Numbered from the whole stretch's first letter, positions 21,861-55,091 are shown. The stretch: DNA of 63,822 nucleotides, filler included, from Craspedostauros australis (GCA_030167865.1; 9 parts of 9 records of this genome joined end to end with filler, not necessarily neighbours in it), one strand, 5' to 3'. Numbers and translations: made by a program. Notes: generated by a model not told the origin, from the letters alone.

Positions 21861-24800
21861 ATGACAGCAACAGCGTCGATGGCTCGGCCACGCCAACCCC
21901 AGCCCATCAACAACACCTTCTTTGAAAGAGAGCAAGAGCTGCAATGTCTTCGAGATGTTCGCCATCTCATCATTGAAGGCCAACCCATCTTGCCGGCTGC
22001 CTTGGTATGGGGAACAAGCGGAAGTGGAAAGTCGACATTGGTCGACCAATTCCTGAACCATTCCTGCTGCACTTGCGGAGGCAAAGATCAGTCAAAACAG
22101 CCACTACCATCGCAATCAGCAGCAGCAGGGGCAAGGACAGAACTGCAAGGAACAATTCGGCAGTGCTCATGTTGCTACGTGCTGCGCGGCAAGTACGATG
22201 AGTACACCGGGAGCAAGGATCCATTCGCCGCCATCATCCAAGCTTTGGATACGTTCGTGACTCAGCTCCGACACGGGCCGTCGGACGAGCTGCAACGGAT
22301 CCAGCATTCCGTGCAACGAGCTTTCTACAGAGAATCTGTAATCGACGAATCTGGCAAAGATGATATCAGCAGCAGTGGTATGGCGAGCAGAACGGGGCAC
22401 AACGAAGCAAGACAGGGCCACTCTGCCATGGCTGCTTTGATCGAAGTCGTCCCATCGTTGTCATTGCTGGTTTCCGATTCCATTGCATCATCTTTCGGTG
22501 TCATGACAGACACTTCAAGACGATCTACGAGAGGCGACCCAAGGGCCACGTCCACCAACGGCATGCTTGATCGCACTAATGGTAGGTCAGACAAGCGCAC
22601 GGCGGAAGTCGACGGGCGCACAAACAACAACATTGCCGGCGAGGCTGACAGCACCGCTGCCGCAACTAGCTCGCAGAGCGCGTGGAACAGGCTATGCTAT
22701 GTCTTCATCCAATTCATGAAGGCCATATCGACTCCGCAACGACCCGTCTACCTCTTCCTCGATGACCTGCAGTGGTCTCCAGCCGCTGGGCTGGAGCTTC
22801 TGGCATCGCTGCTGACAGATCCCGACCTTCGTGATTTCATGTTGGTCGGAGCCATTCGGCAGGAGATCAACCCTCACAACCACCAAGCAATGGAGCTATC
22901 CACTGAGGCCCCCATGTACAAGTCCTTTCTGGAACGGCTATCGTGCGCAGACAAGGCGACTGGCAGTGCAAACAGCGAGGGTAAACGCCTCGAGCAGATC
23001 ACCCTCGGCGATCTGTCGTTGTCAGACTGCATTCAATGGCTGTCGCAGCTCCTCAATCGATCCCGCGACGACAGCGATCTCAAACTACTCGTGTCGAAGA
23101 TCCACAAAAAGACGCACGGAAACGTGTACTTTACGCTTCAGGCCATCGAGGCGCTCAAAAGACAGAGTATCATTATATACAACCACACGTCAAATCGATG
23201 GGAATGGACTTTGCCGAGCCGAGGCAAAGGGAAAGGAAAAAGCAAGAGCAGCAGCAACAGTAACAGTGGCGATCACAGCAGCAGCAGCATCACCAACACC
23301 AACACCGACAGCAGCGACAGCGGCAGCGGCAGCGGCAGCAGCACTGATCTTCCCATTGGCGACAGCAGCGGCAACAGCACTGATCTTCCCATTGGCGACA
23401 ACACTGTAGCTATCATCGAGCTCCAGCTCAAGGAGCTACCGCGCGACCTGCAGAATGCATTGGCGATCGCAGCGTACATCCGATCAACATTTGACTTGGA
23501 CATGCTGCAGACAGTACTGCAGTACGTCAATGACCATGGCGGACTGGTTTTGCCTCACTGGAGCGAGGGATCACCAACAGACAAGACGACGTCAGCAAAC
23601 CTACCAACGTTGGAAGAAGATGCCACAGCGTGGACAGTTGAGCGGTTGTTGACAGTACTGGAACAAGCTCTCCTGGAAGGTCTGCTCACGAACTCCATTG
23701 GCGAGAGTGAGTATCACTTCGCACATGATCGTGTCCGCCAGGCAGCTTCTGGACTGGTTCCATCCGGCCAGCTCCGCAACAAGCTTCGGCTGCAGATTGG
23801 TCACTGCATTTTGGGCATGTACCGGAGGGCCAAGACACTGCAAACGCGGGCTTCGATTGATGATCAACTGGAAGCCAACCATGCAGCTGCGGACAAGGAG
23901 GGCACGGCCCGCAATCATGACCGCCATCCCGCCACGTATGTCGACAGCCTCCTCTTCATCGCTGCTGGCCACCTCAGCAACATGCCGTCCAAGGACCATC
24001 TCTTCCTGGTCACCTTCAACCTCGAAGTTGGGCAGAGAGCGCTCCAGATGGCAGCGCTGTCGACGGCTGACATATACCTGCGAAAGTCAGCCGCGGCGCT
24101 GCAGTATGTGCACGATCCGTGGCAGCAACACTACGACACGTGTCTTGAGCTATTCCAATGTCGATCCGAAATGGAACTCTCGCTGGGAAACTTCGAAGTT
24201 GGCTACAAGCTTGCAGACGAGATTATTAAAAGAGCGCGGACGCTCAACGAGAAGCTTCCAACACATCTCATCAAGGCGGCGGCCCTCGGACGAGAGGGCA
24301 AGGTGGCGGAATCTCTTTCCCTGAGCTTGTCCATAGCTCGGGATTTGGGTGTCTTCCCAAGACGCTTCTATCTGTTCCACGTCGTGAGCGACATTCTTTG
24401 GATCAAGTCGTACCTCAAGAAGCACACCGATGAATACATCCTGAACCTGCCGAGACTGCAAGATTCTCGACTGATCATGGCTGCAAGGATCATCGGGGAG
24501 ATCGGCGCTCGCTCTTTCTTTGCTGGCGAGTCACTCCTCTGGCTTTTGCACGTGCTGAAACGAGCTCACCTGGAACTGCGATGCGGTCTCACCGACGAGT
24601 GTGCACCGCTCTTCGCAGCCCTTGGCCTCGTCTTCAGCCTTTCCAACGAGGATCGTGGGTTGGTGATACGGTGCGCAAACCTTGCGCACCAGCTGTCTCG
24701 GAAGGTTGGCAAGCCTGATCAGGCTAGCTGGGTTAATGTGATCACCGCCGGATCGATCTACCTCAGCAGCGAGCCGTTCAGCAAATGCATCGCTATGCTG

Positions 24801-25961
24801 AAGAAAGGCTATTCCCTCGCCATGGAAGCTGGGGAATTTGAGGTGGGATTGCTGAACCTCCAAACATGCAGCACACAGGCGTTCTTTTCTGGGTACAAGC
24901 TGCACCCATTGGTGGAGACCCTTGAGAATACGCTTCAGCAATACAAGATCTACAACGTGACCTTCAACAATGAGACACCTAAATCCATCTTGATGGTTAC
25001 AAAGTATTTGGCCGGCGCTCACCCGATTGATTGGAATGTCATCGAGCGCAACTTGCAGCAAGACTCCAAGAGTGATCCCAGCGAAATGACTCGACTGATG
25101 TCCACATACACTGCACTGTCGTTGATGACAGCTCTGTTTGGAAAACATGAGCTTGTGCAACGAATGACAAAACTGTACGAGGGATTACCAGATCATTCCA
25201 AGAACTATTGCTTTGAGATAACTGTCATTCTCGTGCAAGGGCTGTCTGCGTGTGCGCTGCACCGGTCCACAGGCAAGACCAAGCACAAGAAGGAGTTGAA
25301 TCGACAAATCAACCTTGCCAGACAACTTGTCACGACGAGGGGGCGCAACGCAACGAGCCTCTCACAGGTGCTCAAAGCTGAGAAGCTTTCCCTCAAGACC
25401 GCAAAGACGAACACGGGCATCATTCGAAGAACGGAAGAAGCGTACGACTTGGCCATCGTGCTGGCAGAGAAGCTATCGTTCACTCACCATTGCGCCATCG
25501 CATGCGAAAATGCCGCTGAGTACCTCATTCGAGTGCGCCAGAAGCTTCCTCGCGACACATCGGATGGGCGCATTCTAGCTCTACGAGCATCACTGCGTGA
25601 TTCGATTTGCAGGCGCATCTCAAAGGCTGTGCAATACTACGAAGAATGGGGATGTTCGGTCAAGGTCGAGGACATCAAGGAACGAAGAGCGCGTTATTTG
25701 GAGATCAGCCATGAAGCACAGATCCAACCGGACTCCTCGAAGCAAGAGCGGAGAGTCGTGGATATGAAAATACGCAGCCAGGGCGGATTCGCAGCGGGCA
25801 CACCGGTACAGGGCAGTTCAGCACCAAAATGGCATGTTGGCCTGGACACTGACGATCACATCACCGGTGCAAACGAAGAAGAAGCAGACGGCGACGGCAA
25901 GAGCCCCGGCGACGGAAATGTGAGCTGTAACGACGACGTTTCTGTGCTGACAGATGGATGA
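21861..25961 (+). CDS. STAND-class P-loop NTPase (AAA_16-like) with C-terminal TPR-like helical region, 1366 aa, intronless
   Basis: FFEREQEL pre-P-loop, Walker A GTSGSGKS, GKYDE, Walker B YLFLDDLQW, THGNVYF (GxP equivalent), YHFAHDRVRQAA, and terminal YYEEWGCSVKV. This is the central module of bacterial multi-sensor kinase/adenylate-cyclase-type STAND proteins, with no kinase or cyclase domain. Confidence 0.9.
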   Translation: MTATASMARPRQPQPINNTFFEREQELQCLRDVRHLIIEGQPILPAALVWGTSGSGKSTLVDQFLNHSCCTCGGKDQSKQPLPSQSAAAGARTELQGTIRQCSCCYVLRGKYDEYTGSKDPFAAIIQALDTFVTQLRHGPSDELQRIQHSVQRAFYRESVIDESGKDDISSSGMASRTGHNEARQGHSAMAALIEVVPSLSLLVSDSIASSFGVMTDTSRRSTRGDPRATSTNGMLDRTNGRSDKRTAEVDGRTNNNIAGEADSTAAATSSQSAWNRLCYVFIQFMKAISTPQRPVYLFLDDLQWSPAAGLELLASLLTDPDLRDFMLVGAIRQEINPHNHQAMELSTEAPMYKSFLERLSCADKATGSANSEGKRLEQITLGDLSLSDCIQWLSQLLNRSRDDSDLKLLVSKIHKKTHGNVYFTLQAIEALKRQSIIIYNHTSNRWEWTLPSRGKGKGKSKSSSNSNSGDHSSSSITNTNTDSSDSGSGSGSSTDLPIGDSSGNSTDLPIGDNTVAIIELQLKELPRDLQNALAIAAYIRSTFDLDMLQTVLQYVNDHGGLVLPHWSEGSPTDKTTSANLPTLEEDATAWTVERLLTVLEQALLEGLLTNSIGESEYHFAHDRVRQAASGLVPSGQLRNKLRLQIGHCILGMYRRAKTLQTRASIDDQLEANHAAADKEGTARNHDRHPATYVDSLLFIAAGHLSNMPSKDHLFLVTFNLEVGQRALQMAALSTADIYLRKSAAALQYVHDPWQQHYDTCLELFQCRSEMELSLGNFEVGYKLADEIIKRARTLNEKLPTHLIKAAALGREGKVAESLSLSLSIARDLGVFPRRFYLFHVVSDILWIKSYLKKHTDEYILNLPRLQDSRLIMAARIIGEIGARSFFAGESLLWLLHVLKRAHLELRCGLTDECAPLFAALGLVFSLSNEDRGLVIRCANLAHQLSRKVGKPDQASWVNVITAGSIYLSSEPFSKCIAMLKKGYSLAMEAGEFEVGLLNLQTCSTQAFFSGYKLHPLVETLENTLQQYKIYNVTFNNETPKSILMVTKYLAGAHPIDWNVIERNLQQDSKSDPSEMTRLMSTYTALSLMTALFGKHELVQRMTKLYEGLPDHSKNYCFEITVILVQGLSACALHRSTGKTKHKKELNRQINLARQLVTTRGRNATSLSQVLKAEKLSLKTAKTNTGIIRRTEEAYDLAIVLAEKLSFTHHCAIACENAAEYLIRVRQKLPRDTSDGRILALRASLRDSICRRISKAVQYYEEWGCSVKVEDIKERRARYLEISHEAQIQPDSSKQERRVVDMKIRSQGGFAAGTPVQGSSAPKWHVGLDTDDHITGANEEEADGDGKSPGDGNVSCNDDVSVLTDG

Positions 25962-26823
25962 GGCTGATTCAGTGGATGCGAGAGTCGGATCGAATGGAGA
26001 AAAGGGAACAAGCAACCCCACAGCAAATACGGGGCAGCTGTGGGACGCGACAGGGTAATACATGCACTTATACATATGTACTGCGTGTCACACGCGACTC
26101 TGCGTGAAGACAAGGAGGGGGAGGAGTCGTGGAGAAAACTAATTCATCGGCACCTCAGACAGGGAACGTGGTTCATGAGGAGGGGGCCGCTTCACAACGA
26201 TTGCACAATCAATTCTAATGGCTGACATGGAGACATTTCCTGGGCTGCATTTCGCACTCCAATTATCTGTTGTCTTCTTCGGTGCTCTGCCCGTGGCTCA
26301 CATCCTCCAAAGGGGTGTCAGCGCTTGGACTCAGACGTGAAGCTCTATTTCGTCGATTGCGACGAAAGTGGTAGAACGTCGTGGTCAGTCTGAGTTGCAC
26401 ATTTATCGCTGTTGGCATTGCATGACTTCCGCAGAACAACTGAGCAGCACAAGAACGAAAGAATGACCACGACTCCGACTAACGCGTTTGTGGATGCGTT
26501 GGCGTGAATACGTGTATGCCACACACACCGACGCTGCGTGCTCCATGTAACCACATTCATCATGACATGTACAGAGCACCCGCAAAGCAGACCCAAGAGC
26601 ATCGCAATGCCGACGCATCAATGCTCGACTCTGCGAGTATGTACGTCTGTCAAAACGTAATCGCACAGCATTGCCATAATATACGTCCACGACGTTTGGA
26701 CGATCCCTCCGCCCGAGACAAGATCCTCATCCTCCTCGGCTGAGCTCAGGGATAGCGCCCTTGCCCACTGCATTTGTGTCCATCTTTTCACTTGCGCACG
26801 AGAGCAAGAGCACAAGCAACACC

Positions 26824-28913
26824 ATGAACATCACTGGCATCATGGCAGTTGAAACTGCACATGAGATCAATGTGATGAGCAGCAACAGGCTCCAATATGA
26901 TAGTGGCTGCTCATCCGATGAGAAGAAGCTTCAATTCGATGTCTTCGTTGGATGTGAAGACAAGTTGGAATGGTTGAACTCCATCTACAAGCACATGTGC
27001 CCCAAATCATCCAACCCTTCAGCGTGGGACATCAACAGCAATGGCAACGGCAAGGATACAGTTGAGATTCAAGAAGGGACAGACTATTACCGGACACAGT
27101 ATCAACCCCAATGGGAGAAATTCTTGTTTTGGCACAAAATTGTCCGACTTGATCGACCACCAAATCTTTTTCTCCTCCTTTCTCTCCTCCATTCACAAGT
27201 CCATCATGACTCAAGCATGACTGACCTGACTCACACCTCACCTTGGGAACTATATGCTCCTCAAATCCTTTTACTACAACATACCTCAATTCCCTCCATG
27301 CTGATGACTACTGCACCACTGCTGTAGTCTTGACGTGTGTATCCAACCTGTTTCAACTTGAGCAATGGAATCCAAGAACCAGCTCCAGCCACAGCCATTG
27401 CTTCATGGCCACTTCCATTGAGTGTCATGACCTACATTACAGTGTGTCTATGTGTGTGGAGAGCAAGGAACTGTAATGATTGTCTACCCTCAAGCACTGA
27501 ACCAAGTACATCAGTGCAGGGTCTCACCAAGTTGTGTGGCATCATTTCTTCACCCTACCAACACTACAAGCTAACACATAATAACCAGACAAGGATTAGC
27601 TACAAAGCACTCTTCTACTCATCGTTACAGTAACAACTATCAAATCAGTACGCCTCTCTTGAACTGCATCACACAGCTATCCCAAAGCTGGCAGATTCAT
27701 GAGGCATCCTCCACCAATTCGCACTGACTATGCCCAAATCCTAACTGCCCCTTTGATTAAAATCTTTAGGGTGTCCCAATATTGTCTTTGCAAGGCCATT
27801 AATTCTAACTAGGCCAGCACCACCTTTATGGCTCAGGTTGAGCACTATGATATGCTCACATTGTGTGATATCTACCTACTGGTGAAGGATATGCTTGAGT
27901 ATCTGCTTGGCATCGAACCTATAGAAATACAAGACCAAACAGGAGCCCAGCACAACCAATCAAAGAATAAGTGGAAGGATGCATTCGACATCCCGCCTCC
28001 CAAAGGTATGCCACTTTGGGAGCGCACTAGATGGGGAGTTTGCCATTGGACTCACATCCAGCTCGCAACCTGCTTCGGCAAGTTGGAGGTGGGAGAAGAG
28101 CACATTCGCCCTTTGGAAGCAAGTGCAGGTCTCAGTAGTTTCCACATCAGCAAGTCTGCAAGGCTACTCCACTCTGGACTCATGATGTCCAGGCTGGCAA
28201 AGAAGGCAGCTGGCAAGAGGAAGAGGAGACACTATCATCGCAAATCCATGCGCTACGCTGAGGAACTCCGACGTACGATCGAGAGCAACGGTGGGTACAA
28301 CCTGCACTGCTGTCTGATCATGGAAGCAGACGCAATGGCGACATCCGATGACGAATCGGAGCAGAACAGTCGAGCGGCATACGACAGAGCCATCTCCTTT
28401 TGCGCCCAAGATGGGCGTCTCCAGGATGCAGCGCTAGCAAACGAACTAGCCACCGAGTACTTCTTGATGCAGCGATCGCCACCGACTACGCCAACAGTCG
28501 GCGCGTCCACAAGTCCGCAAGAGAAAGGAAGCAACAAGAACACAACATGAGGCACAATCAAGCTTGCACGTACACCCAGGGAGTCCAATACTCTTGCGAG
28601 TTCTGCTTTGATGCCTGGGGCAGTCTCGGATGATGACGACTCAAGCATTCACTGGGCACGCATATACCTGGAGAATGCCCTTGCACTGCACCATAAATGG
28701 GGAGCAAAGGGAAAGGTTGAGCAGCTGTTAGTTAAGTATCCGGACTTGGTTAACGAAAGCATGGTGGAATGTCTGAGTGATGCCATCGGAGGCGAGGTCG
28801 ACAACAACAAGCGAGAGAGCAACCAAAGCGCAGCCAGGGTCACCGCAGATACTCGAGCGTGCATGGTGGCGGCGCATGAGGTCATGGCGAAGACCGATCT
28901 CGATAATCTGTAA
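26824..28913 (+). pseudogene. Disrupted STAND ATPase paralogue: N-terminus (26824-27059), LTR insertion, central deletion, C-terminus (~27768-28913) with an in-frame stop
   Basis: QFDVFVGCEDKLEWLNSIY aligns with QFNTFVGREDELERLNSIY of the 50992 gene. 27828-28913 aligns with its last ~340 aa (AAYDRAISFCAQDGRLQDAALANELATEYFL; KWGAKGKVEQLL; TADTRACMVAAHEVMA). ORFs 27828 and 28608 share a frame, split by TGA at 28548-28550. Confidence 0.9.
27060..27746 (-). mobile_element. LTR (family A, 687 bp, AG...CT termini), probably the 3' LTR of a truncated minus-strand element
   Basis: Closely similar along its length to 56380-56472 + 58259-58849. Ends AGTTGAGATTC...AATCCTAACT. Flanks differ (GATAC / GCCCC). 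The minus strand has a purine run AAAGGGGC directly before the LTR, which is PPT-like. Confidence 0.8.
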
Positions 28914-29306
28914 CTGCTTGTACCATGCTAGGACTATCAGGAGTGGGCTCTACTCCTACCATTACTCCCTGCCAACAGTTCTGTTGCACATTTTAATCAG
29001 ATTCATACAATATCTAATTGGGCACCTTCATTGCCTTAAATCTATGAATAGGTACCATGCAGTGTTGCTTACGGGCATAATGAATTTATCTTTGTTTGCT
29101 TCGTTCTGAGATTGCGTAACACCGTAGCGCCAAGTGAACGAACTTCGTCGAGTGGCAGCGTGCCACGTGGACACTAGATGTATGGCACTATACATAATAT
29201 AATACTGTAGGCATCAATTGGTATAGGTATAATTATATTTCATTCTTTTGGTATTGCACGGCGAGATTTGATCGTGTTCCATCGTGTTGTTGTTTTCGCC
29301 AAGTGC

Positions 29307-30283: not shown

Positions 30284-30292
30284 GTTATTGCT

Positions 30293-31420: not shown

Positions 31421-31568
31421 GAGTCTCGGCACCAGACATCCGCACCTGGATGGGCAGAGTTCACGGGAAACGGACAGACGAAACAATCGAAGAACGAAAA
31501 ACGCGTGGTGGCACACTGGACGAANNNNNNNNNNNNNNNNNNNNNNNNNNNNNNNNNNNNNNNNNNNN

Positions 31569-31580
31569 TTAATTAATTAA
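31569..31580. other. Artificial scaffold linker TTAATTAATTAA (also 36011-36022, 38563-38574, 41543-41554, 44333-44344, 47639-47650, 49992-50003, 62123-62134)
   Basis: The same 12-mer, with stops in all six frames, is embedded in N runs eight times. Confidence 0.97.
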
Positions 31581-31994
31581 NNNNNNNNNNNNNNNNNNNN
31601 NNNNNNNNNNNNNNNNNNNNNNNNTTCACCCTGCTTATTCTCATCCCATTTCATTCAGATGCTCATCAAGTAGTCATAAAACGCACAAAGCAATAGCCCA
31701 AAAGCCTATAGCCTTAACACACTACAAAGCAAGCACATTTTCCTTTCAGCCAACGTTTTCCTTGTCAACCCCGACTCTAAACGGCCTCTTCTTGAAGTCG
31801 GTCCGGGTGGCAACATTGAACCCCTGTACAACAAGACAGGCAGAATCCACATCACACGAATCCATCACAAAACACAAGTCCAACACAGAACACTTTNGTC
31901 CGTCTACTTCGATCGCGTAAGTCCGCGGGCTTGACCCAAAACTCACACAACACTTCGCTTGGACTTCTGGGATCCGCGTGAAACTACCCAAACT

Positions 31995-44388: not shown

Positions 44389-47300
44389 TTCTCAACACCC
44401 TTGAACTGCCCATACGACTGGTTCATCCATGTCACGTCTCGTGTGATTAGGATCCTTGCCGTTGCGAGGTTCATCATTCGGTATACACCGCTCGCGTGTG
44501 ACTGTCCGTATCCGACGAACATGGCAGGCTTGGACCGATCGTCCAGTTTCGCCTTGATCACTCGGCCTCCGATGAACACCATGCCAATCTCGCCGAACAA
44601 ACGCAGTCCGTCCACGTATGTGGGAGTCTGCCCATTGAATAGTACGCAAGCCGGTTCTCTCGACTTCGTTCCAATGATGTTCTCGAGTTGCGTTGCTGTT
44701 CTCGCTGCTTCAGCCCATAGCTTCCCTCGTAGGTGCTTTGGTAGGTGGGTTTGGTTGAGCATCGCCCTGACCTTTCCGTATAGTACAGCGAACTTTCGTT
44801 CCACGCGACCATTCTGCTGTGGAGTTGAAGCTGCCGTGTATTCGAATATCGGGCCGAATCCCACCTTGAGTAGCTGCGCCTCTGCGCTGTAGTTCTCGCC
44901 TGCGTTGTCACATCTGATATTCTCGACAGTCACGTTCTGATTCGCCTTGAGCCATCTCAAGAGCGACATCATCTTCGATCCCACTTCGCTCTTCTCTTTG
45001 ATGAAGTAGCTCCAGCAGTAGTCGCTGTAGTCGTCAATGATCAGGAGCCAGAATTTTCCGCGACCAAAACTGTACGTCTGGACACTGGAGGTATCCATGA
45101 ACAGCCGTTCGCCAACTCTGTTCGCCTTCGGCTGTGACATTTTCGACAAACACTTTTGTCGAGATTTGCCGATGGCGCAGTCCTCACATGGATTCATTCG
45201 TCCTATGACATTCCATCCGTACCGCGCAGCAGTGCGCGAGATAGTGTAAGTGTCAACGTGGCCTAACATTTTATGGATTTGATTGATGTCGACCGCCTTG
45301 CCGGTGGACACACCAATGTTTGCCATCTCATGTTCNNNNNNNNNCGCCACCATGTTCACGCCGGAAACGAATCCACTGTGAGTCGCCATGATGCGGTCGA
45401 AACGGATACGCAATCCGTTCTTCTCGAGAGCCATCACCACACCCTTGTTGCTGATATCGAATCCGCTTTCGAGTGCCTTCGTGATACTCAGGAGGTTGAC
45501 CCAAAGCTTGGGAACGAACTTCACCGCCTTGAGGATGATGATGACCTCGGAGCCATCCTTCTGCATCACCTTCATGCGTTTGTCGCCCACCTTCGTTGCT
45601 TTGAGGTAGCGCCCGCTTCCCACCTTGACTGCAAAGCTCGCGAGGCGCACATTCGTCATACCCTCGTCGCAGTTAGTGAGGTGGCAGGATGCCCCCGAGT
45701 CGCCAAGCCAGGTGTTTGCCTCGTGGCGATCTGGCGCGATGGTCTTCTTGCGTTCGCCGGCGTCGTACATGTCGCCGATCACCATGGCTAGCTCATGCGC
45801 ATGGTTGTACCCGTAGATGGGCAACTCGTCGAACATGTGCCCGTCGCGCACGCCGTTGTCCGATGGATGGTGAATCCAGAGCAGGCGATCCGCGGCCATG
45901 GCGCTCATACGCGAGATCAGGTTCTTCGGGAGTGGCGGGAGACGATTCTCCTCAAGCAAATCGTTGATGTCGATTGCCTTGCTCGCCACATCGTATGCTC
46001 CGATCACGCCAATGGTCATCAGCATGAAGTACACACTCCGCACTTCCATGCGGTTCTCGTCGATGCCTTGGTATGCCTCCATCGCGTCATAGCAGNNNNN
46101 NNNNNNNNNNNNNNNNNNNNNNNNNNNNNNNNNNNNNNNNNNNNNCACACCCTTGTTGCTGATGTCGAATCCGCTTTCGAGTGCCTTCGTGATGCTCAGG
46201 AGGTTGACCCAAAGCTTGGGGACGAACTTGACCGCCTTGAGGATGATGATGACCTCCGAGCCATCCTTCTGCATCACCTTCATGCGTTTGTCGCCCANNN
46301 NNNNNNNNNNNNNNNNNNNNNNNNNNNNNNNNNNNNNNNNNNNNNNNNNNNNNNNNNNNNNNNNNNNNNNNNNNNNNNNNNNNNNNNNNNNNNNNNNNNN
46401 NNNNNNNNNNNNNNNNNNNNNNNNNNNNNNNNNNNNNNNNNNNNNNNNNNNNNNNNNNNNNNNNCCGGCGTCGTACATGTCGCCGATCACCATGGCTAGC
46501 TCATGCGCATGGTTGTACCCGTAGATGGGCAACTCGTCGAACATGTGCCCGTCCCGCACACCGTTGTTGGAAGGATGATGGATCCAGAGCAGGCGATCTG
46601 CGGCCATGGCGCTCATACGCGAGATCAGGTTCTTCGGGAGTGGCGGGAGACGATTCTCCTCAAGCAAATCGTTGATGTCGATTGCCTTGCTCGCCACNNN
46701 NNNNNNNNNNNNNNNNNNNNNNNNNNNNNNNNNNNNNNNNNNNNNNNNNNNNNNNNNNNNNNNNNNNNNNNNNNNNNNNNNNNNNNNNNNNNNNNNNNNN
46801 NNNNNNNNNNNNNNNNNNNNNNNNNNNNNNTTCGCAGGCATCACGTTGGACAGCGAGCATCTCACCGCATAGGGAGGGTTGTCGCTTCCAAGGATTTGGC
46901 GGCGTTGGAGCTTCTCGGCTGGTGTCACAGGCACGTCTCCCTTTGGTCCTCCTGGGATGAGGATCAAGAATGGGCAGAACGGACAGTCAACACACCACGA
47001 GAACAAAGGCCCTTTGGTCAGGCACAGTGGGCACCATGCGTTGTCGTTGTCGCGCCGAGACGCAGTCTCGATCAATCCGTCCAAGTAGGAGCGGATGGGG
47101 CGCACGTTGTAGACCGGCTCTGGTCGCCTTGCTGAGGCCGTCGCGTGGAGGTCGATGCCGGGCATCGCGATCTCGTTGCTTTCGGTTTTGTCAGCTTCGC
47201 TCTCATCAGACGAGAACAAGTTGTCGCTCATCATGCGATCCGCGTCGACTTGCGGTCCGTAGTAACCGTAGTCGTTCGGGCTGCGGATCCCAACCACTTC

Positions 47301-47594
47301 GATCGATCCCTCGTCGTTGTCGTTGTTGGTTCCGTTGTAGAACCCTGCAGCCAAGTCTCCGTCGACGACCATGAGAGCCATGTCCTCCATGAGGTTTTCG
47401 ATGTTGCTCTCCGTGTCGTGGATGCGTGTTGTCACGATTTCGTGGTCGGTGAGAATTTGTTTTTCGCTCACATTTTTGGTGTTGCGCGCGATTTCTCCGT
47501 CCTCCGCGATTTCGTGACACAACATCACATCATCGACGCTGACCAGCGCGACGTCGTCCATGCCGTCCATCCCGTCGGTAGCCACATTGGCTGA
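44389..47594 (-). mobile_element. Ty1/copia pol fragment: protease, pre-integrase HHCC, integrase, with a long unusual region upstream of the protease
   Basis: WLGDSGASCHLT, VKFVPKLWVNLLSI, HKMLGH..CEDCAIGK, IIDDYSDYCWSYFIKEKS, IRCDNAGEN, TPQQNGRVERK, LWAEAARTA and KLDDRSKPAMFVGY. Confidence 0.92.
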
Positions 47595-47694
47595 NNNNNN
47601 NNNNNNNNNNNNNNNNNNNNNNNNNNNNNNNNNNNNNNTTAATTAATTAANNNNNNNNNNNNNNNNNNNNNNNNNNNNNNNNNNNNNNNNNNNN

Positions 47695-49946
47695 TGCTCT
47701 GGAATGCATGTTGCTGTGTCCAGGATGGACGATGGGTCAACTTCAAGTGTCGATCCGATTTTGTCGGAGACGCGCGTTACTGGAGCCACCTTGAGAGGTG
47801 CCGTGTTGGTCTCGATCATCCCTTGGACAAACTTCTCGACTTCGAATGCACTTGGCTGTGGCCATGGCCCTGGACGGATGGTCGTGACTTGACGACGGAG
47901 CAGTTCGAATGCGAGACGATAGTGATGATTCTCAGAGATGGCGTTCCACACGGAGCGAGTCCTTTTGAAGAAAGTGTTTCCACTGATTCTGGATTCGGGA
48001 GGAAGAAAACCCTTCATCATCAAGTATTCCGGATCCTGGTACGACCATGGCTCTGGTTTGGCCGATGACATGTAGTCAAAGGCACCGAAGCTGGGGTTCA
48101 TGATGCCGGTTCGAATGAAAGTGCTCAGTCTGTTGACGAATTGGCCGATAGCGTAGTCAGTTGCTTGTCTCCTGAGGTCGTCGCAACGAATCTCGCAGTG
48201 AAGGTCGACTTCGAAGTGTCTCTCCATGTCCGAGTAGAAGTCTTCGTAGACGTCTTGGAATGGCGTTGGTCCCTCTTCGACCATGTCGTCTGGATCCGGC
48301 TGCCACCAATCGGCCATGTTGATGCTTGCTTCTTCTGCTTTAGCCGGTTTTGGAGCGAACGTTGGAAGGACGATGTTGGTTGGTTGTGGATTCAATGTAT
48401 TGAATCGACCTCGAAGTCTGCGCAACAAGTAGTGAGCGTCTACCTTGAATTGGTGTAGGTCGATGGAGAGAGAGTCGCTGCCCTCGCGTTGGAGAGGTTC
48501 GATTGTATGTAGGCAATCGACGACAGCTTGTGAGAATGTTATGATCGATGACGAGTCGGGGTGCAATTCCCTGGGTGTTGTGGCTTGTTCAATCTCTTCC
48601 AAAGTAACTACTGCGGGGCAGAAGTAGTAGTCATCGGTATCTTCGTTGTCTAACCATGCGGCTTTGCCTCCCATGCGCGCATACGTGAATCGCTTTGGTT
48701 GTTTGCGATTTCTCGTGCTTCGAGGTCTTACTGGCGTTGGTTCAAGCTTAGGCATGATTGGTGTCGTGGAACCGGTTTCAGTTAGTGTCGGATCTGAAGG
48801 TGGTAATGGAGTTGCCGGTTCCGAGATTGGTGACTCTCGGAGAGGTGAGTCCAATTGCGGTTGAAGTGTTCGCTGGTCCGGTGACTCTATAGTAGGGTCA
48901 GGTANNNNNNNNNNNNNNNNNNNNNNNNNNNNNNNNNNNNNNNNNNNNNNNNNNTCCAATTGCGGTTGAAGTGTTCGCTGGTCCGGTGACTCTATAGTAG
49001 GGTCAGGTACCGGGGACTCATCGGGAGCTCCCTCTGTCAAAGACATTTGCTTGTTGGCTCCCTCTGAAGCTGGCATCGGAGGGGCGAGAGTTTCACTCAT
49101 GAGATCCGGGATCTGTTGTGTCGTTGGTTGCGACTCTTTCGCCAATACCTGTGGCGCTCTTTCACGGATGGTTCGTTGGTTTCGCGTCTCAGTTATCGGT
49201 GGTGGAGTATTATTGTCGTTGCGTTGTAACCGGTTGTGGTCTCGCGTGTCTGATGCAAAGATGTCGTCCTGCTCCATTGATTCCACATCGTCGTCATCGA
49301 ATGGATATTGAAAGGTGGTGTCACCGAACATGCAAGTCCATTCTTCCGATTGATAGCTTGGAAGTTGCTTCAAGTCGGTAGCAATTGTTGCGAACCAGTC
49401 GTCGAACACAACATGGAACTGTGGTGTGATCGAACCTGTCCGTGGTGATAGGACCAGGGGTACGGTTGAAGCATGCTTCGTGGAGAGACCCATGTTCACG
49501 TACCTCTCTCCTCTTGGTTCCCATCGGGGTATCTTGCGCCCGTCGGCCAATGCTTTGTTAAGGACATAGACTGGACTGCCCCATACGTGCAGGTTATGAA
49601 GTTGCTTGAGGGGAAGACGGATGCGTGACAGAACATCNNNNNNNNNNNNNNNNNNNNNNNNNNNNNNNNNNNNNNNNNNNNNNNNNNNNNNNNNNNNNNN
49701 NNNNNNNNNNNNNAGTTGAGCGTCAAACATCGTTGGCCAGTGGATGCTTTGATGCATCATCATGGTTCGGGCCATTGAGACAATCGTTCGAATGCTTCGC
49801 TCGGCGATTCCATTGTGGTGATGTGCGCCAACACCTGCGAATCGATGGACTTGATGGAATATCTCAAGGTGTTTGGAGTATTCGGGTGAGGTGAAGGTGG
49901 TGGCGTTATCTGATAGATACGATCGTACGGGGACTCCAACATCACG
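47695..49946 (-). mobile_element. Ty1/copia (CoDi-like) integrase C-terminal half followed by a long non-RT region
   Basis: GVGAHHHNGIAERSIRTIVSMARTMMMH..HWP, LHVWGSPVYVL..KIPRWEPR, HASTVPLVLSPRTGSITPQFHVVFDDWF. Confidence 0.88.
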
Positions 49947-50991
49947 ANNNNNNNNNNNNNNNNNNNNNNNNNNNNNNNNNNNNNNNNNNNNTTAATTAAT
50001 TAANNNNNNNNNNNNNNNNNNNNNNNNNNNNNNNNNNNNNNNNNNNNGTCTGTCCGTTTTGTCCGGTCATTTTGTCCGGTCTGTCCGGTCTGACCTAGTT
50101 TCTCCGGTTTTGTCCGGTCTCTCTTGATGGGTGTGAACGAACCACAATTGAAGTAAAATAGCGTAACCCTAATTATGCTTTTTGGGATTTCGGCTGATTC
50201 ACTTTTCTGTCTCAACGCAGTGTATTAAGTCCCGTTAAAGTAAGTCACGAGCTAGAAAAGTGAAAATCGGACAAAATGTTGGGTGTTCCTGAACTTCGCT
50301 TGTGTCCATTCATCGTCCATTCTCTGTCAAGGGCACCAACGAAGAACACTGCGACATTCATTACCGTTTCCAAGTGTTTCTCTCTCATCTCCTTCACTGT
50401 CCATCTGGAGCCATTTCGAGCTGTCGGCACAACAGCGTCCAATCCTGTGCGGTGCTACCGCGATGTCTCAAACGCCGCGACCGGAAACGAGACAGCGCTT
50501 GCGAGTGTCCCTGCCAACAGTCTGTTGTCATGAAGGAGAGCACCAGCACTCACATCGCATTCCTCCGCTCTCGATCCTTGGAGCTGAACGTGCCTGCGTC
50601 CTCGCTTCAGAGAAGCAGAGAGGCAGAGAGAGACAGAGAGAGCATTGCCACTTCATTCATAATACACAAACACATCCACGTGCCAACACCAACACCGAAT
50701 CTGCTGTGTTGGTCTTCCTGCAGCTGCTCGTTGACTTTTGCACTGACTGGTGATACTTTTATAATAAACAACTTGGCGACTGCACCAACATCGAACCCAA
50801 AACACTTGATCGTCCATCACAAGTGGGGAGATATAATACCATCTCTCTGTCTCTCTTCATCAGCGCTGCCATCGTGATCAGCAGCCACTCTTTCAAGACA
50901 GTGTCGGTATAGCCCGACGGGTCTCGCAACATCGGACCCCGCAATACTTCGCACCATTCGAAACCATCGATCGACGAAGGCATCAAACACC

Positions 50992-53900
50992 ATGGCAGAC
51001 AAAACAACTCCCTGTGAGCAGACGGATGATCAAACGTACGCTTCATCACATCCAGGGACAGACACTCCCGATGATCCCAAGCACAGTATCTACGACGACG
51101 ATGGCAACGATGACGATGACGAACAGTGGGATCAATTCCAGTTCAACACCTTCGTGGGACGCGAAGATGAGCTGGAACGATTGAACTCGATCTACGGCCG
51201 CATATGTCGCAAACCACTGACGAAGCACACTCGTGATGACAGCAGCAGTGCCGATAGCAACAAGGATGCACAGATCGTCCTCATCCACGGCTATTCTGGG
51301 ACGGGCAAATCAGCATTGGTGGACCGTTTCTTGCATAGATTGAATGATGGCGCAACCAAGTCACCATCGCCGCCCCCATCGTCTCCACCATCTCAAACTG
51401 CAACATCCGCAATTGCTCACTCTGTACAGAATGAAGCACCCGCACCATCAAACAAGCGACGAACTGACTCGCATCCATGTCACTACGGAAAGGGAAAGTA
51501 CGACCAATTCAATGCAGGTGGCAATCTTTCGGCTATTGTGGATGCGCTGTCACATTTCTTTCGGAGCCTTGTTGCATCTGGCGACACCGAAGAATGCGAC
51601 CGGATCAGGATGGGACTCAATCAGAGGATGGATGCCACACGCCGCATGTTTGTGTGTCGAGCAATTCCGGGACTCACATCTTTATTGACAGAGAACGAAA
51701 CTAACCCTGTCGACAACTGTGGAAGCGTGGCCGGGATCGTTAGCTCACATGGTGTTGTGCGCGGCAACGCAAACGAGTTGCTTCGCGAAGACCAGGCGTC
51801 GGTTTCTTCGGGCTCGATAGCTTCGGGGAGCATGATGAACACAGGCACGTTCTCCCATGCGGGATCCAAAACGAATGAGTGGGTTCAGCTGGTGTACAGC
51901 TTCAAGGTCGTTCTGAAGGCCATCTGCACGGACGGCCGTCCTCTCGTGCTCTATCTGGATGGTGAGTGATAGCAATGGGATTGTCTGTTTCATGTGTGCG
52001 ATGTTCCTCCACGGCCTCGGCGCGGCATCGACACTTGCATACTTGCATGGAGTACCAGTGCGTATGTGAACCGCCCATTCCTTCCAGCTCATGTGTACGA
52101 GTACAACGTCACAACGCACCACTCTGAACCACCGTCGTATCTTTCACATTCCCAATCTCTCACATTTGCACACCTGTACTCGCACGATCAGACCTTCAAT
52201 GGGTTGACGAACGATCTCTCAAGCTCACTACGGAGATCTTGATCGACCAATCCATCCGCAACCTTCTCATCATCGGATCATACCGATCCAACGAGGTGCA
52301 CAACGATCCTCAGCATCAACTCACCACAGCTGTCTCACAATGGAAAAACAACGGGAAGACCATCCATGACATTCCCCTCAATGATCTCACAGTCACCCAC
52401 ACTGCGGAGCTCCTCGCATCGTCACTTCGGTTGGACACCATGAAAACAACGCCGCTCGCCAAGCTGCTCCACGACAAGACCAAAGGCAACGTTCTCTACA
52501 CCATGCAAGCGTTGGAGGGACTGCGCCGTCGCAAGGTTCTGACTCGCAACATCCACACAATGCAATGGGAATGGGATGAGCAACGAGCAGCCGATGAAAT
52601 TGATCTATCAGCGAATGTAGTCGACCTGATCACATCGAAGCTGCAGTCACTGCCTGAGGATCTTCGGAGGTGCTTGCAGATGGCTTCATTTCTGCGATCG
52701 ACATTCCGCCGGTCGTTGTTGGAGACGCTGATGGACATGGAGATTGAACACCAGCAGCAGAAGGCAGATGGTGGAGGCACCATGCGTATCTTGGCAGTGG
52801 CCGAGATGAGCGTAGGTGACGCACTGAATCTAGCAGTGAAGGAAGAACTGCTGGAGAGACTCGATGTCGACACAGCAGCCGCCACAGAGATAGCTGAAGG
52901 CACAGTCACCTCAGGTGCGACGTTCCGCTTCGTCCACGACCGAATCCAACAGGCGGCCTTTTCGTTGACTCCTCCGGGTGACGAACTAGACCAAATGAAG
53001 TATCAGGTTGGTAAACACCTCATGGAGATCGCGTCTGATCCCATGCTGGGTGAAGATTGGATGTGGTTTGTGGCCGCGGATCATCTGGAGAATGCATCTT
53101 CACTCACAACCACCAACACTCTCATCCCTGAGCTTGATCTGATCAAGCTGAACCTCAAGGTTGGGCAGCTCGCCGTTGGCGTGGCTGCGTTTCTCCCAGC
53201 AATGAAATACTTGAACCGGGCATTGACGAATCTGGAAGTCAAGATAGCTGACCCTTGGAGGACGCAGCATGAGCTGTGTTTGGAGATCCACCATAGATTA
53301 TCTGAGGTTGAGCTGACCCTCGGCAACTACGAGAAGGGGTCGATCCTGTGCCAGGCCATCATCGACAACTGCGACAACTCCATTGAAGACATCGTCAAGG
53401 CGAACATATCGCTCGCCGTGGCTCTCGAACGGATGGAGAGATACGAGGAGGCGTGTAACTTGCACCTTCGGTCGCTCAAGTTGCTGGGGACATTCCCAAT
53501 GAGAAACCATCTATTCCTGGCACTGAGAGACTTCAGAAAGCTCAAGAAGTACTTCGCGAAGCACACGGATGAGGAGGTGCTGAACCTTCCCGTCATGACC
53601 GATCCCAACATGTTGATGACAGTGAAGATCTTACAGTACCTCGGATCTGTTGCCTACATGGTTGGCAGGGATGCGACATTGCTGCTTACAGGATTTCGCC
53701 AGGTGACGTTGATGCTGAAGCATGGGCTAAGTGGCGAAGGTGCCTATGGCTCTTATGTGACGCGCTCGGTCGCATTACATGTCATGAAGGATGTGAAATT
53801 CGCAAAACGGTTGCAAACGCTCCCGGCAAGGATTCTCGCTACGACGGACTCCAAATACATGATGTGCCAGTTCTTCATGGCAGATACAGCATTCCTGGCT

Positions 53901-55091
53901 ACATGGTCTGAGCCTGTACATGTATGTTTCGCGGCCTTTCAAAAAGGCCATCGAGCTGGGATGGAGGCAGGTGACTTAACTCGTGCATACCGATGCTGGG
54001 GGATGTGCATAACGCATGGCTTCTTGTGCGGGGTCCCGCTTGTGTCCTTGCACCGCACTGTGAAGATGCTCCTGGTGCAAGCCGAGCATTACAACCTGAC
54101 AGAGATATCCAACTCGTATGGACAAGTCCAACGTTTCTTCGAGATCTTGCTGGGCATGTCGTCTTCTCGACTTCAAGGCGAAGTGATTCGGGAGCAATCA
54201 GGTGAACAATCAATCGGGCATTGGAAGGATCAGTCTGATGTCCCATCAGTCAAAGACATGGATCGTGAGCAACGCATTCATTGGGGTGTATGGTACTGGT
54301 GCTACGAGCAATTAACGATGTACTTCGGTGAATTGGAGCTGGGGAAGATCTGCATGGGGCCATCAAAAGCTAGCGCTGGGCTCGACCATACCTTTGCTCG
54401 GCAGACCGGGAGAATGTTTCAAGGTGGGCTCACCATGTCCAGGATGGCGCAAAAGACGGACTGCAAGAGTAAGCGGAGGAAGTATCACCGCAAGGCGGCA
54501 AACTACACGGCAGAACTTCGTCTTCTGGTCGAGAGGAATGGCGGCAACAACCTCCATCGGTACCTCATCATGGAGGCAGACACGATGGCAGCAAGAAGGA
54601 AGCAACCCGAACAGAAGGTGAAGGCAGCGTACGACAAGGCCATTTCCTATTGCGCCAGATCGGGACATGTCAATGACGCGGCGCTGGCAAATGAGCTTGC
54701 CGCTGAGTACTTTCTGAACAAGCACACAGGCACACTGGCACTGTCTGGGCCTTTGCCAAGCACAACTTTGAGCGGTCCCTTACGAAGCTCCGATGTTGAG
54801 AGCACAGGTGTCCTGGATGACGATAAAGACTTCTACTGGCCGCAGCAGTATCTGGGAAATGCCATCTCGTTGTACAACGAATGGGGAGCAAGGGCAAAGG
54901 TAGAGCAGCTGTTGGAGAAGCATCCGAATCTTGTAGATCGAAGCATGCTGGAGGGTGGTGTTGGTGGGGACAACGGGGAAGGTGGCGAGCGGCGACGGAA
55001 ACGAAGAACCGCCAAGCACACGGCAGACACGCGGATGTGCGTTGCCGCAGCCCACAAGATCATGGCAGAGGTGAACTTTGATGCACTGTAA
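50992..55091 (+). CDS. STAND-class P-loop NTPase with TPR-like C-terminus, 1289 aa; join(50992..51961,52192..55091)
   Basis: FVGREDEL, Walker A GYSGTGKS, GKGKYDQ. Intron GTGAGT (51962) to CAG (52191) restores Walker B LYLDDLQWVD in frame. Then IIGSYRSNEV, KTKGNVLY, FRFVHDRIQQAA and LYNEWGARAKV. Confidence 0.92.

What the first reader, a model, noticed from the sequence alone, without database searches (positions are those of the whole stretch)
21861..55091. Effector-less STAND/TPR ATPase family: candidate diatom NLR-like receptors
Seen: three members, two intact (21861-25961, 50992-55091) and one pseudogene (26824-28913) tandem to the first. NTPase motifs are conserved, helical C-termini are very divergent, N-termini are short, and there is no kinase, cyclase or TIR domain. 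Two of the three lie in or beside LTR insertions. Established: STAND NTPase plus superhelical repeats is the architecture of NLRs and bacterial Avs receptors, which show birth-and-death evolution; here the module resembles the core of bacterial multi-sensor kinases. Inference: an expanded, rapidly turning-over sensor family signalling in trans. The 50992 gene is on a different scaffold piece, so linkage is unproven.
Basis: partly seen in the sequence, partly recalled or inferred. Interest (0 to 1): 0.7.

Follow-up and report, generated by a model that had tools for sequence, protein, structure and literature searches.

The report
Diatom effector-less STAND ATPase family
The window holds two intact genes and one gutted copy of a diatom family of ATP-driven switch proteins with a long repeat "sensor" arm but no built-in output domain; the family is real and apparently undescribed, but nothing here shows that it works in immunity.

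Summary
The observation largely holds. Gene 1 (21861-25961) is one 1366-codon ORF. Gene 2 (50992-55091) is intact once a 230-nt GT-AG intron inside the Walker B codons is removed. A third copy (26824-28913) keeps only its first ~75 and last ~360 codons, with a young repeat in between.

Both intact proteins are AAA_16 STAND NTPases. Predicted folds show a MalT-like NOD plus arm, followed by ~600 residues of TPR-like superhelix. No kinase, cyclase, GAF, TIR or other output domain was found in the genes, upstream of them, or in 17 of 17 standalone relatives checked.

They belong to a well-supported clade in which every member carrying an organism name is a diatom. Its nearest other relatives are the central module of bacterial kinase-STAND-GAF-histidine kinase/cyclase proteins.

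The "rapid turnover" and "very divergent C-termini" claims are not supported. Genes 1 and 2 are old paralogues, each with a closer relative elsewhere (for gene 2, in Stauroneis), and the sensor arm is almost as conserved as the NOD. The LTR claim holds only in part, because the window is nine concatenated pieces.

An immune role remains untested. A clade-specific N-terminal motif, GR[DE]FYDDGY, is a new lead for output through a partner protein.

The parts
21861..25961 (+). Gene 1: intact single-exon gene, 1366 aa. Contains an AAA_16 STAND NOD (aa ~20-630), then an all-helical TPR-like arm and sensor (aa ~637 onwards), then a low-complexity tail.
22011..22034 (+). Gene 1 Walker A (P-loop), GTSGSGKS, aa 51-58.
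   Evidence: family-invariant G51/G54/G56/K57
22752..22775 (+). Gene 1 Walker B and the family motif LFLDDLQW, aa 298-305.
23769..25760 (+). Gene 1 helical repeat (TPR-like) arm and sensor, aa ~637-1300.
   Evidence: Model (helices 637-1199, pLDDT mostly above 88). Z about 20 to Rap/NprR/LGN TPR domains. The part beyond aa 1200 is inferred from alignment and from the gene 2 model.
26824..27060 (+). Pseudogene, N-terminal remnant (~79 codons). It ends just before where the P-loop should be.
27060..27746 (.). Young repeat of undetermined class that fills the deleted middle of the pseudogene.
27813..28913 (+). Pseudogene, C-terminal remnant. It is in another frame than the N-terminal piece, has an in-frame stop at 28548-28550, and is 41% identical to the last 340 aa of gene 2.
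50992..51961 (+). Gene 2 exon 1. Holds an acidic N-terminus with a degenerate IYDDDG motif, the FVGREDELERL helix, Walker A (GYSGTGKS), and the first half of Walker B.
51962..52191 (+). Gene 2 intron: 230 nt, GT...AG, phase 1, inside the second Asp codon of Walker B.
   Evidence: Inferred from homology; there is no RNA evidence.
52192..55091 (+). Gene 2 exon 2. Holds the rest of the NBD, the HD, the WHD, and ~650 aa of helical repeats running to the conserved C-terminal end.
56380..58849 (.). Second copy of the repeat found in the pseudogene (56380-56471 and 58256-58849). Here it is split by ~1.8 kb that includes two N gaps.
49948..50047 (.). Artificial linker (N44-TTAATTAATTAA-N44) marking the start of the piece that carries gene 2. 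Seven more linkers start at 31525, 35967, 38519, 41499, 44289, 47595 and 62079.

Best explanation
The three loci belong to a multigene family of stand-alone MalT/PknK-type STAND NTPases, widespread among the diatoms that carry an organism name in these searches. Each protein has an AAA_16 NOD (NBD, helical domain, winged helix), an arm, and a TPR-like superhelical sensor of about 600 residues. The family shares ancestry with the central module of bacterial Ser/Thr-kinase-STAND-GAF-(histidine kinase / cyclase / PP2C) proteins, but carries none of their output domains.

Shown here: the architecture, intact Walker A and B motifs, conservation of the family-invariant residues, old paralogy of genes 1 and 2, and loss of one copy by deletion plus repeat insertion.

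Inferred: as in other STANDs, the protein rests as an ADP-bound monomer autoinhibited by its arm and sensor. A ligand bound by the TPR arm permits ADP/ATP exchange and head-to-tail oligomerisation. Because there is no enzymatic domain, the oligomer would act as a scaffold and signal through a partner protein. The best candidate docking site is the clade-specific N-terminal motif GR[DE]FYDDGY, which is degenerate in gene 2 and absent from gene 1, or else the conserved C-terminal end.

The ligand is unknown. So is whether the pathway is immune, metabolic or environmental.
For: - Pfam AAA_16 is above cut-off in both genes.
- The AlphaFold model of gene 1 aa 1-1200 (pLDDT 78.5, pTM 0.75) has a five-stranded NBD, a helical domain, a winged helix, and then helical repeats.
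- Its top Foldseek PDB hit is the STAND-with-TPR-sensor protein PH0952 (6mfv_A, E 3.9e-5), followed by Avs3.
- The NOD plus arm aligns to MalT (8bob_C: Z 14.6, 369 of 412 residues, rmsd 5.3). The sensor aligns to Rap/NprR/LGN TPR domains (Z about 20, rmsd 5.3-6.2, ~340 aligned).
- The gene 2 exon 2 model (pLDDT 85.3) gives 6mfv_A at rank 2.
- Bacterial kinase-fused proteins match at E down to 5e-33 for gene 1 and 7e-47 for gene 2, but only over this module.
- In the tree, a 40-row stand-alone clade (SH-aLRT 100) holds all three window copies and the named diatoms. A 32-row clade made up of the kinase- and/or GAF-fused forms is also supported at 100.
- No effector domain was found in 17 of 17 stand-alone relatives scanned. 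All 7 of 7 relatives with ~230-400-residue N-termini carry a kinase domain.
- The first 60 of 120 listed profile hits carry only P-loop or TPR families.
- MMETSP transcripts of Stauroneis (P0123, P0187, P0193; 1288-1673 aa) have AAA_16 only.
- The strict motif occurs in 17 of the 37 non-window rows of the clade, and in none of the other proteins among the 320 held at that point.
Against: - Nothing biochemical was tested. ATP binding, oligomerisation and partner binding are all inferred from family knowledge (STAND mechanism as summarised in the introduction and results passages of PMC6468293 seen).
- The structural matches have modest E-values. The Z of 14.6 to MalT is close to what helical models can reach by common arrangement (note).
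- Gene 1 lacks the N-terminal motif, so the motif cannot be the universal output site.
- The 5' ends of both genes are unverified, because no RNA run was listed. Only 0.94 kb upstream of gene 2 lies on its piece.
- The tree is unrooted and was built with the quick method under LG+G4, so the direction of any bacteria-diatom transfer is not shown.
Confidence: 0.6

Rival explanations
1. One reading: these are NLR-like intracellular immune receptors of diatoms. On this reading the family is expanded and evolves by birth and death, it detects viral, bacterial or oomycete molecules with its TPR arm, and it triggers defence in trans.
For: - The architecture is that of STAND receptors, and Avs3 is the second Foldseek hit.
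- One of the three copies is a pseudogene disrupted by a repeat.
- All three copies lie on unplaced, concatenated pieces together with repeats.
- At least three paralogues are expressed in one diatom, Stauroneis.
- In the gene 1 lineage, the last part of the sensor is about half as conserved as the rest (26% against 42-48%).
Against: - No PADLOC defence model matches any of the 6 proteins scanned. NACHT is below cut-off and NB-ARC gives no hit.
- Genes 1 and 2 are old paralogues, each with a closer relative from elsewhere (Stauroneis P0123 for gene 2, the unnamed P0003 for gene 1); the window's copies as one clade is rejected.
- Conservation in the gene 2 lineage is even across domains (42/38/37%).
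- Every nearly invariant family residue is kept in both intact genes.
- The bacterial relatives look like housekeeping signal-transduction proteins (kinase, GAF, histidine kinase, cyclase) rather than known defence genes.
Confidence: 0.15
2. The gene models are incomplete: unrecognised exons, or sequence lost at piece boundaries, add an output domain, so the proteins are ordinary multi-domain kinases or cyclases like their bacterial relatives.
For: - The 5' ends are unverified. Only 944 bp lie between the linker and the gene 2 start.
- Some relatives outside the clade carry partial kinase domains on ~230-400-residue N-termini.
- NCBI names one Nitzschia inconspicua member 'multi-sensor signal transduction multi-kinase'.
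Against: - No kinase, GAF, histidine kinase or cyclase match anywhere in the window by tblastn with three bacterial relatives.
- No Pfam hit in any of the 17 upstream ORFs scanned.
- The 513-codon ORF upstream of gene 1 is low-complexity and ends in a stop 1.5 kb before the gene.
- Both genes end at stops after the family's conserved C-terminal motif.
- Three Stauroneis MMETSP transcripts scanned, one of them (P0187) marked complete by its source, and the first 60 listed profile hits carry no output domain.
Confidence: 0.05
3. The family is a relic of bacterial gene transfer with no present function, and the intact ORFs are decaying slowly.
For: - One copy in the window is already destroyed.
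- The nearest non-diatom relatives are bacterial.
Against: - Frames of 1366 codons (open) and about 1290 codons (spliced) are kept, along with all nearly invariant residues.
- Full-length transcripts exist in other diatoms.
- Paralogue lineages are retained across genera.
Confidence: 0.05

Closest known systems
Bacterial 'trifunctional Ser/Thr kinase / ATP-binding protein / sensor histidine kinase' and related kinase-AAA_16-GAF-cyclase/PP2C proteins, and PknK-like kinase-AAA_16-TPR proteins (names as given by NCBI/UniRef)
   Same: The whole AAA_16 NOD plus helical arm and sensor is homologous. Identity is 22-27% over up to 100% of gene 2 exon 2. The alignment includes the C-terminal ~300 residues that precede the GAF domain in the bacterial forms.
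   Different: The window genes have no kinase, GAF, histidine kinase, cyclase, PP2C or receiver domain. They are eukaryotic genes, one with a spliceosomal-type intron. They form a separate clade in the tree, and many of its members carry an N-terminal GR[DE]FYDDGY motif.
MalT of E. coli and the archaeal PH0952 protein (STAND ATPases with a TPR sensor; PDB 8bob, 1hz4, 6mfv; PMC6468293)
   Same: The predicted NBD-HD-WHD-arm-TPR order matches. 6mfv_A is the best or second-best Foldseek hit for the two models. The MalT NOD plus arm aligns at Z 14.6 over 369 residues.
   Different: There is no DNA-binding effector domain (LuxR/GerE or ArsR type). The sensor is about twice as long. Sequence identity is only 10-14%, and there was no sequence-level PDB hit.
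NLRs (NACHT / NB-ARC) and bacterial Avs antiviral STANDs
   Same: They belong to the same STAND class and have the same logic of a NOD followed by a repeat sensor. Avs3 (8dgc) is Foldseek hit 2-3.
   Different: The NOD is of the AAA_16 type, not NACHT or NB-ARC. No PADLOC Avs or bNACHT model matches. There is no N-terminal death-fold, TIR, nuclease or protease domain. No sign of lineage-specific rapid diversification was found in what could be tested.
Fungal group X hybrid histidine kinases (for example C. albicans CHK1, with S_TKc and GAF domains; abstract of PMC9069115 seen in the listing; the presence of an AAA_16 module in them is recalled, not tested here)
   Same: They are a eukaryotic descendant of the same bacterial kinase-ATPase-GAF-histidine kinase architecture (recalled).
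   Different: The fungal proteins keep the kinase, GAF and histidine kinase domains, whereas the diatom proteins keep only the ATPase-helical core.

Membership tests
STAND NTPases (definition as in the introduction of PMC6468293) | P-loop NBD with Walker A and Walker B | tested here: met
   GTSGSGKS and LFLDDLQW in gene 1. GYSGTGKS and LYLDD|LQW (across the intron) in gene 2. AAA_16 is above cut-off in both.
STAND NTPases | NOD made of NBD + helical domain + STAND-specific winged-helix domain | tested here: met
   Prediction only. The model shows five strands, then helices 387-434, then a beta-hairpin at 438-449 and further helices. It aligns to the MalT NOD plus arm at Z 14.6 (369 residues) and has 6mfv_A as top Foldseek hit.
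STAND NTPases | Arm followed by a repeat sensor domain | tested here: met
   Helical repeats span aa 637-1199 of gene 1 and 263-909 of gene 2 exon 2. Z about 20 to Rap/NprR/LGN TPR domains. Weak Pfam TPR_12 hit (E 0.005, below cut-off).
STAND NTPases | At least one effector domain at either end ('generally', so not strictly required) | tested here: not met
   No Pfam family other than P-loop or TPR ones in either gene. No domain in upstream ORFs. The same holds in 17 of 17 stand-alone relatives.
STAND NTPases | Nucleotide-dependent switch and oligomerisation | not testable with these tools
   Needs biochemistry. No complex prediction was run.
Pfam AAA_16 (PF13191) | Score above the gathering cut-off of 32.6 bits | tested here: met
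   Gene 1 scores 73.1 bits and gene 2 exon 1 scores 40.2 bits.
NLR in the strict sense (NACHT or NB-ARC NOD) | NACHT (PF05729) or NB-ARC (PF00931) domain | tested here: not met
   NACHT scores 13.2 bits against a cut-off of 26.7 in gene 2 exon 1. There is no NB-ARC hit at E <= 0.1.
Bacterial Avs / bNACHT antiviral STANDs (PADLOC-DB models) | Match to a PADLOC defence-protein model | tested here: not met
   0 families for gene 1 and for both exons of gene 2 at E <= 0.01. The only hit among the 6 proteins was a chance-level mad8 hit (E 0.0026) in P0006.
Bacterial kinase-AAA_16-GAF-histidine kinase/cyclase multi-domain proteins | Homologous AAA_16 plus helical central module | tested here: met
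   E values of 5e-33 to 1e-17 for gene 1 among the listed hits. 7e-47 and weaker for gene 2 exon 2, with up to 100% coverage.
Bacterial kinase-AAA_16-GAF-histidine kinase/cyclase multi-domain proteins | Ser/Thr kinase domain and GAF plus histidine kinase/cyclase/PP2C output | tested here: not met
   tblastn of P0009, P0021 and P0051 matches the window only with their residues 421-1340. There are no such Pfam hits.
MalT / LAL-type transcription regulators | C-terminal LuxR/GerE DNA-binding domain | tested here: not met
   No GerE or other HTH family in the Pfam scans.

The most novel reading that the evidence does not exclude
The diatom clade is a eukaryotic receptor system derived from a bacterial kinase-STAND sensor. 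It has shed all enzymatic domains and signals instead by recruiting a separate effector to the oligomerised NOD through the clade-specific N-terminal GR[DE]FYDDGY peptide. That would make it functionally analogous to NLRs that signal through short N-terminal motifs, and a first candidate for intracellular pathogen or danger sensing in diatoms.
Probability: 0.12. Interest if true: 0.8.

Novelty: new variant of a known kind. Interest (0 to 1): 0.4.

Why it matters
Diatoms carry out a large share of ocean photosynthesis (about 20% of the global total, as stated in abstracts listed). They are attacked by viruses, bacteria and parasites, yet I found no description of an intracellular receptor family for them in my searches (passages).

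A conserved, multi-copy STAND family with an intact ATPase switch, a very long TPR sensor and no output domain poses a clear question: how does a STAND signal without an effector? It also gives a concrete handle, the N-terminal motif.

The family is also a clean example of one signalling module occurring in two forms, embedded in giant bacterial kinases and free-standing in a eukaryote.

If the family is merely a housekeeping regulator, the finding is an ordinary uncharacterised gene family.

Tried and rejected
- Whole-genome copy count: no genome is held for this window.
- Expression: no RNA holder was listed for 20300-29300.
- Earlier notes of this scan: nothing on this genome or this sequence. 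A word search gave only bacterial and archaeal STAND findings.
- PDB by sequence: no meaningful hit (best E 0.22).
- NCBIfam: only a weak sub-threshold match to the central part of TOMM_kin_cyc (24.3 bits against a cut-off of 705.75).
- PADLOC: nothing for the window's proteins.
- Metagenome loci: 79 were fetched. The four diatom-like ones (L001, L002, L008, L035) are contigs of only 3.7-5 kb, so they give no gene neighbourhood. The rest look bacterial and were not analysed further.
- First tree attempt: MAFFT on 87 full-length rows timed out. It was replaced by alignment to a family HMM.
- LTR identity of the 27060-27746 repeat: no TG...CA ends or retroelement protein domains were recognised. 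The class is left open.
- Search for the motif elsewhere in the window, as a possible partner in trans: the only six-frame match is the N-terminus of gene 2 itself.
- Literature: two diatom genome/HGT papers had no mention of AAA, TPR or P-loop terms in their main text. Their supplements were not read and could list the family.
- Not attempted: complex prediction, and dN/dS analysis. The available pairs are 25-46% identical and so saturated.
Full report
**What the window is**

The window is eukaryotic. Large ORFs encode an HSF-type DNA-binding protein, an ankyrin plus 2OG-Fe(II) oxygenase, an FKBP, an IFRD homologue, a cis-prenyltransferase, a Methyltransf_22 protein and copia-like Pol fragments.

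It is not one contiguous stretch. Eight identical linkers of 44 N, TTAATTAATTAA and 44 N divide it into nine pieces. They start at 31525, 35967, 38519, 41499, 44289, 47595, 49948 and 62079. I read the linkers as artificial six-frame stop spacers joining unplaced contigs; that reading is an inference.

Gene 1 and the pseudogene lie on piece 1-31524. Gene 2 lies on piece 50048-62078. No whole genome is held for the window.

**The three loci**

- **Gene 1 (21861-25961, +)** is a single open frame of 1366 codons.
- **Gene 2 (50992-55091, +)** hits stops after codon 325 if read straight through. A second frame is open from 52239 to 55091. The DNA shows GT at 51962 and AG at 52190-52191. Removing these 230 nt joins LYLDD to LQWVDER. 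This recreates the family's most conserved motif, LFLDDLQW (Walker B plus QW). The splice is inferred from homology only.
- **The third locus** keeps two remnants.
  - The N-terminal remnant (26824-27060) is 18/41 identical to the gene 2 N-terminus, including the FVGxEDxLExLNSIY helix (E 2e-8).
  - The C-terminal remnant (27813-28913) is 41% identical to the last 340 residues of gene 2. It has one in-frame stop at 28548-28550 and lies in a different frame from the N-terminal piece.
  - The roughly 900 codons from the P-loop to two thirds of the helical arm are gone.
  - In their place lies a 690-bp repeat (27060-27746). It is 89% identical to 56380-56471 plus 58256-58849, downstream of gene 2. 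The repeat is far younger than the gene duplication. Its class is undetermined.

tblastn with 14 family members found no other copy in the window.

**Domain content**

Pfam finds AAA_16 above cut-off in both intact genes and otherwise only overlapping P-loop families. There is a weak sub-threshold TPR_12 hit in gene 2.

Three bacterial relatives that carry kinase, GAF and histidine kinase or cyclase domains match the window only through their residues 421-1340, which is the ATPase-helical core.

Seventeen ORFs of at least 70 codons in the 3.9 kb upstream of gene 1 and the 0.94 kb upstream of gene 2 (16 on the + strand, one on the - strand) have no Pfam hit at E <= 0.01. Nor do 25 further ORFs around the pseudogene and downstream of gene 2. 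The 513-codon ORF upstream of gene 1 is acidic and proline-rich low-complexity sequence, and it ends in a stop 1.5 kb before gene 1.

PADLOC gives nothing for the window's proteins. A PDB sequence search gives nothing. NCBIfam gives only a far sub-threshold hit to the middle of TOMM_kin_cyc.

**Fold**

An AlphaFold model of gene 1 residues 1-1200 was built on a 47-row family alignment. It has mean pLDDT 78.5 and pTM 0.75. It shows:
- a five-stranded P-loop domain interrupted by disordered low-complexity inserts;
- a helical domain;
- a winged-helix hairpin;
- continuous helical hairpins from residue 637 to the end of the model.

Foldseek against the PDB ranks first the STAND protein with a TPR sensor, PH0952 (6mfv_A, E 3.9e-5). 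Avs3 follows (8dgc, 4.4e-5). Below them come TPR proteins, Orc/Cdc6 and MalT domain III.

A second look with VIA-align gives two results:
- Residues 17-746 align to the MalT NOD plus arm (8bob_C: Z 14.6, 369 of 412 residues, rmsd 5.3).
- Residues 713-1112 align to Rap, NprR and LGN TPR domains (Z about 20).

The tool warns that Z values under about 13 are common for helical repeats, so the MalT match is supportive rather than decisive.

The model of gene 2 exon 2 (pLDDT 85.3) shows the same helical arm running to residue ~909, plus a terminal helix. It again has 6mfv_A at rank 2.

By the definition quoted in PMC6468293 (introduction passage), these are STAND proteins with a NOD, an arm and a TPR sensor, but without the usual effector domain.

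**Relatives**

- The best hit of gene 1 is an unnamed 1400-residue protein, P0003 (38% identity, 91% coverage). A few more AAA_16-only proteins follow. After them come bacterial 'trifunctional Ser/Thr kinase / ATP-binding / sensor histidine kinase' proteins at 22-25% identity.
- The best hit of gene 2 is a Stauroneis MMETSP transcript, P0123 (37%, 100% coverage).
- The ESM Atlas places gene 1 nearest a 122-member cluster that is 80% Eukaryota, most commonly Bacillariophyta.
- A profile of 13 stand-alone members finds 15,341 representative proteins at E <= 1e-30 in 1.84 billion. There is no sharp score gap between stand-alone and fused forms.
- In the 90%-cluster database, 794 proteins pass E <= 1e-100. 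The first 60 of the 120 listed carry only P-loop or TPR families. Fused bacterial forms begin at rank 61.

Every stand-alone relative that carries an organism name is a diatom:
- Stauroneis constricta: P0123, P0187, P0193
- Nitzschia sp. Nitz4: P0195
- Nitzschia inconspicua: P0340, annotated 'multi-sensor signal transduction multi-kinase'
- Cylindrotheca closterium: P0206, P0346
- a Bacillariaceae MAG: P0339
- a protein labelled Psemu1: P0348
- MMETSP1423 'Pseud...': P0349
- MMETSP0015 'Odont...': P0140

Pfam on 24 relatives found only P-loop families in 17 of 17 stand-alone proteins, including the longest at 1673 residues. It found a kinase domain, often partial, in 7 of 7 proteins with ~230-400-residue N-termini.

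**Tree**

The tree has 87 rows aligned to the family HMM, with 999 columns kept. It was built with IQ-TREE quick search under LG+G4 and is unrooted.

- A 40-row stand-alone clade (SH-aLRT 100) holds all three window copies, the three Stauroneis sequences, Nitzschia Nitz4 and one Cylindrotheca sequence.
- Gene 2 and the pseudogene are sisters (support 99), and Stauroneis P0123 is next (100).
- Gene 1 pairs with P0003 (100) in another subclade. That subclade also contains Stauroneis P0193.
- The bacterial proteins fused to kinase and/or GAF-output domains form their own 32-row clade (100). Other stand-alone rows, including the Odontella sequence, and the kinase-only forms lie between the two clades.
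- Forcing the window's three copies into one clade costs 209.8 lnL units (p-AU 2.8e-6). The caveat is that this group was named after I had seen the tree.

So genes 1 and 2 diverged before the window's organism separated from the Stauroneis lineage. Only the split between gene 2 and the pseudogene is younger, and even that pair is just 46% identical over 243 aligned columns.

**Conservation by domain**

| Pair | NOD | Arm / WHD | First half of TPR | Last part |
|---|---|---|---|---|
| Gene 1 vs P0003 | 48% | 42% | 43% | 26% (residues 1051-1200) |
| Gene 2 vs P0123 | 42% (with HD and WHD) | counted with NOD | 38% | 37% (last third) |

Both intact genes keep every nearly invariant residue of the family. 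The far C-terminal part of the gene 1 lineage does evolve faster.

**A new detail: the N-terminal motif**

A short motif, GR[DE]FYDDGY, lies 25-40 residues before the GRxxEL helix that opens the NOD.
- In strict form it occurs in 17 of the 37 non-window rows of the stand-alone clade.
- It occurs in none of the other proteins among the 320 held at that point.
- Gene 2 has a degenerate form (SIYDDDG at 51088).
- Gene 1 has none, and no other frame of the window encodes one.

**Mechanism**

- *Shown:* the architecture and the intact nucleotide-binding motifs.
- *Inferred from the STAND literature (passages of PMC6468293):* an ADP-bound, autoinhibited monomer; ligand binding by the TPR arm; nucleotide exchange; head-to-tail oligomerisation.
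- *My own inference:* with no enzymatic domain, output must go through a partner recruited to the oligomer. The N-terminal motif or the conserved C-terminal end (YDxAI...ALAxELAxEY...WGAxAKV) are candidate docking sites.

**Immune role**

This is untested. The points in favour are the receptor-like architecture, one repeat-disrupted pseudogene, and the location on unplaced repeat-rich pieces. The points against are the old, retained paralogue lineages, the even conservation, the absence of any match to known defence models, and relatives that look like general signal-transduction proteins.

**Novelty**

The proteins are members of a family already present in public databases under automatic names. 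I found no paper describing it. I also read passages of a brown-algal receptor paper, a diatom HGT preprint and the Seminavis genome paper. Supplements were not read.

I rate it a new variant of a known kind: a eukaryotic, effector-less branch of the MalT/PknK-type STANDs with its own N-terminal motif. Interest is moderate.

Noticed in passing
window 31525-31624, 35967-36066, 38519-38618, 41499-41598, 44289-44388, 47595-47694, 49948-50047, 62079-62178: Eight identical linkers (44 N, TTAATTAATTAA, 44 N) divide the window into nine pieces. Order and adjacency between pieces therefore mean nothing.
   Followed up: yes
window 41728-49991 (- strand ORFs): Copia-like retroelement fragments (Pol_BBD and SH3_retrovirus domains), with many internal N runs, are spread over three separate pieces. 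There is an internal 97% duplication: 45438-45989 against 46146-46697.
   Followed up: partly
P0003, P0005-7, P0125, P0173-176, P0178-182, P0184, P0187, P0206; window 51088: A conserved N-terminal peptide, GR[DE]FYDDGY, is restricted to the diatom stand-alone clade. It is degenerate in gene 2 and absent from gene 1.
   Followed up: partly
window 27828-28550 (+): The pseudogene's C-terminal remnant still has a 240-codon ATG-initiated ORF covering part of the helical arm. Whether a truncated TPR-only protein is made is unknown.
   Followed up: no
window 18789-20330 (+): A 513-codon acidic and proline-rich low-complexity ORF with no Pfam family lies 1.5 kb upstream of gene 1 on the same strand. 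It ends in a stop and looks like a separate gene.
   Followed up: partly
P0220, P0240, P0259, P0263, P0277 (tree): Relatives of about 1270-1430 residues, with a partial or degenerate protein-kinase domain in front of the AAA_16-helical core, sit in the tree between the diatom-like groups and the clade of bacterial kinase- and/or GAF-fused forms. Their organisms are unnamed.
   Followed up: no
window 2787-4616 (-), 9169-11589 (+), 12083-12778 (+), 14127-15836 (+), 16292-17755 (-), 36233-37450 (+): Ordinary eukaryotic genes: an HSF-type DNA-binding protein, an ankyrin plus 2OG-Fe(II) oxygenase, an FKBP, an IFRD-like protein, a cis-prenyltransferase and a Methyltransf_22 protein.
   Followed up: no
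window 55491-55736 versus 33569-33325: There is a 68% identical inverted match between the region just downstream of gene 2 and another piece. It may be another dispersed repeat.
   Followed up: no
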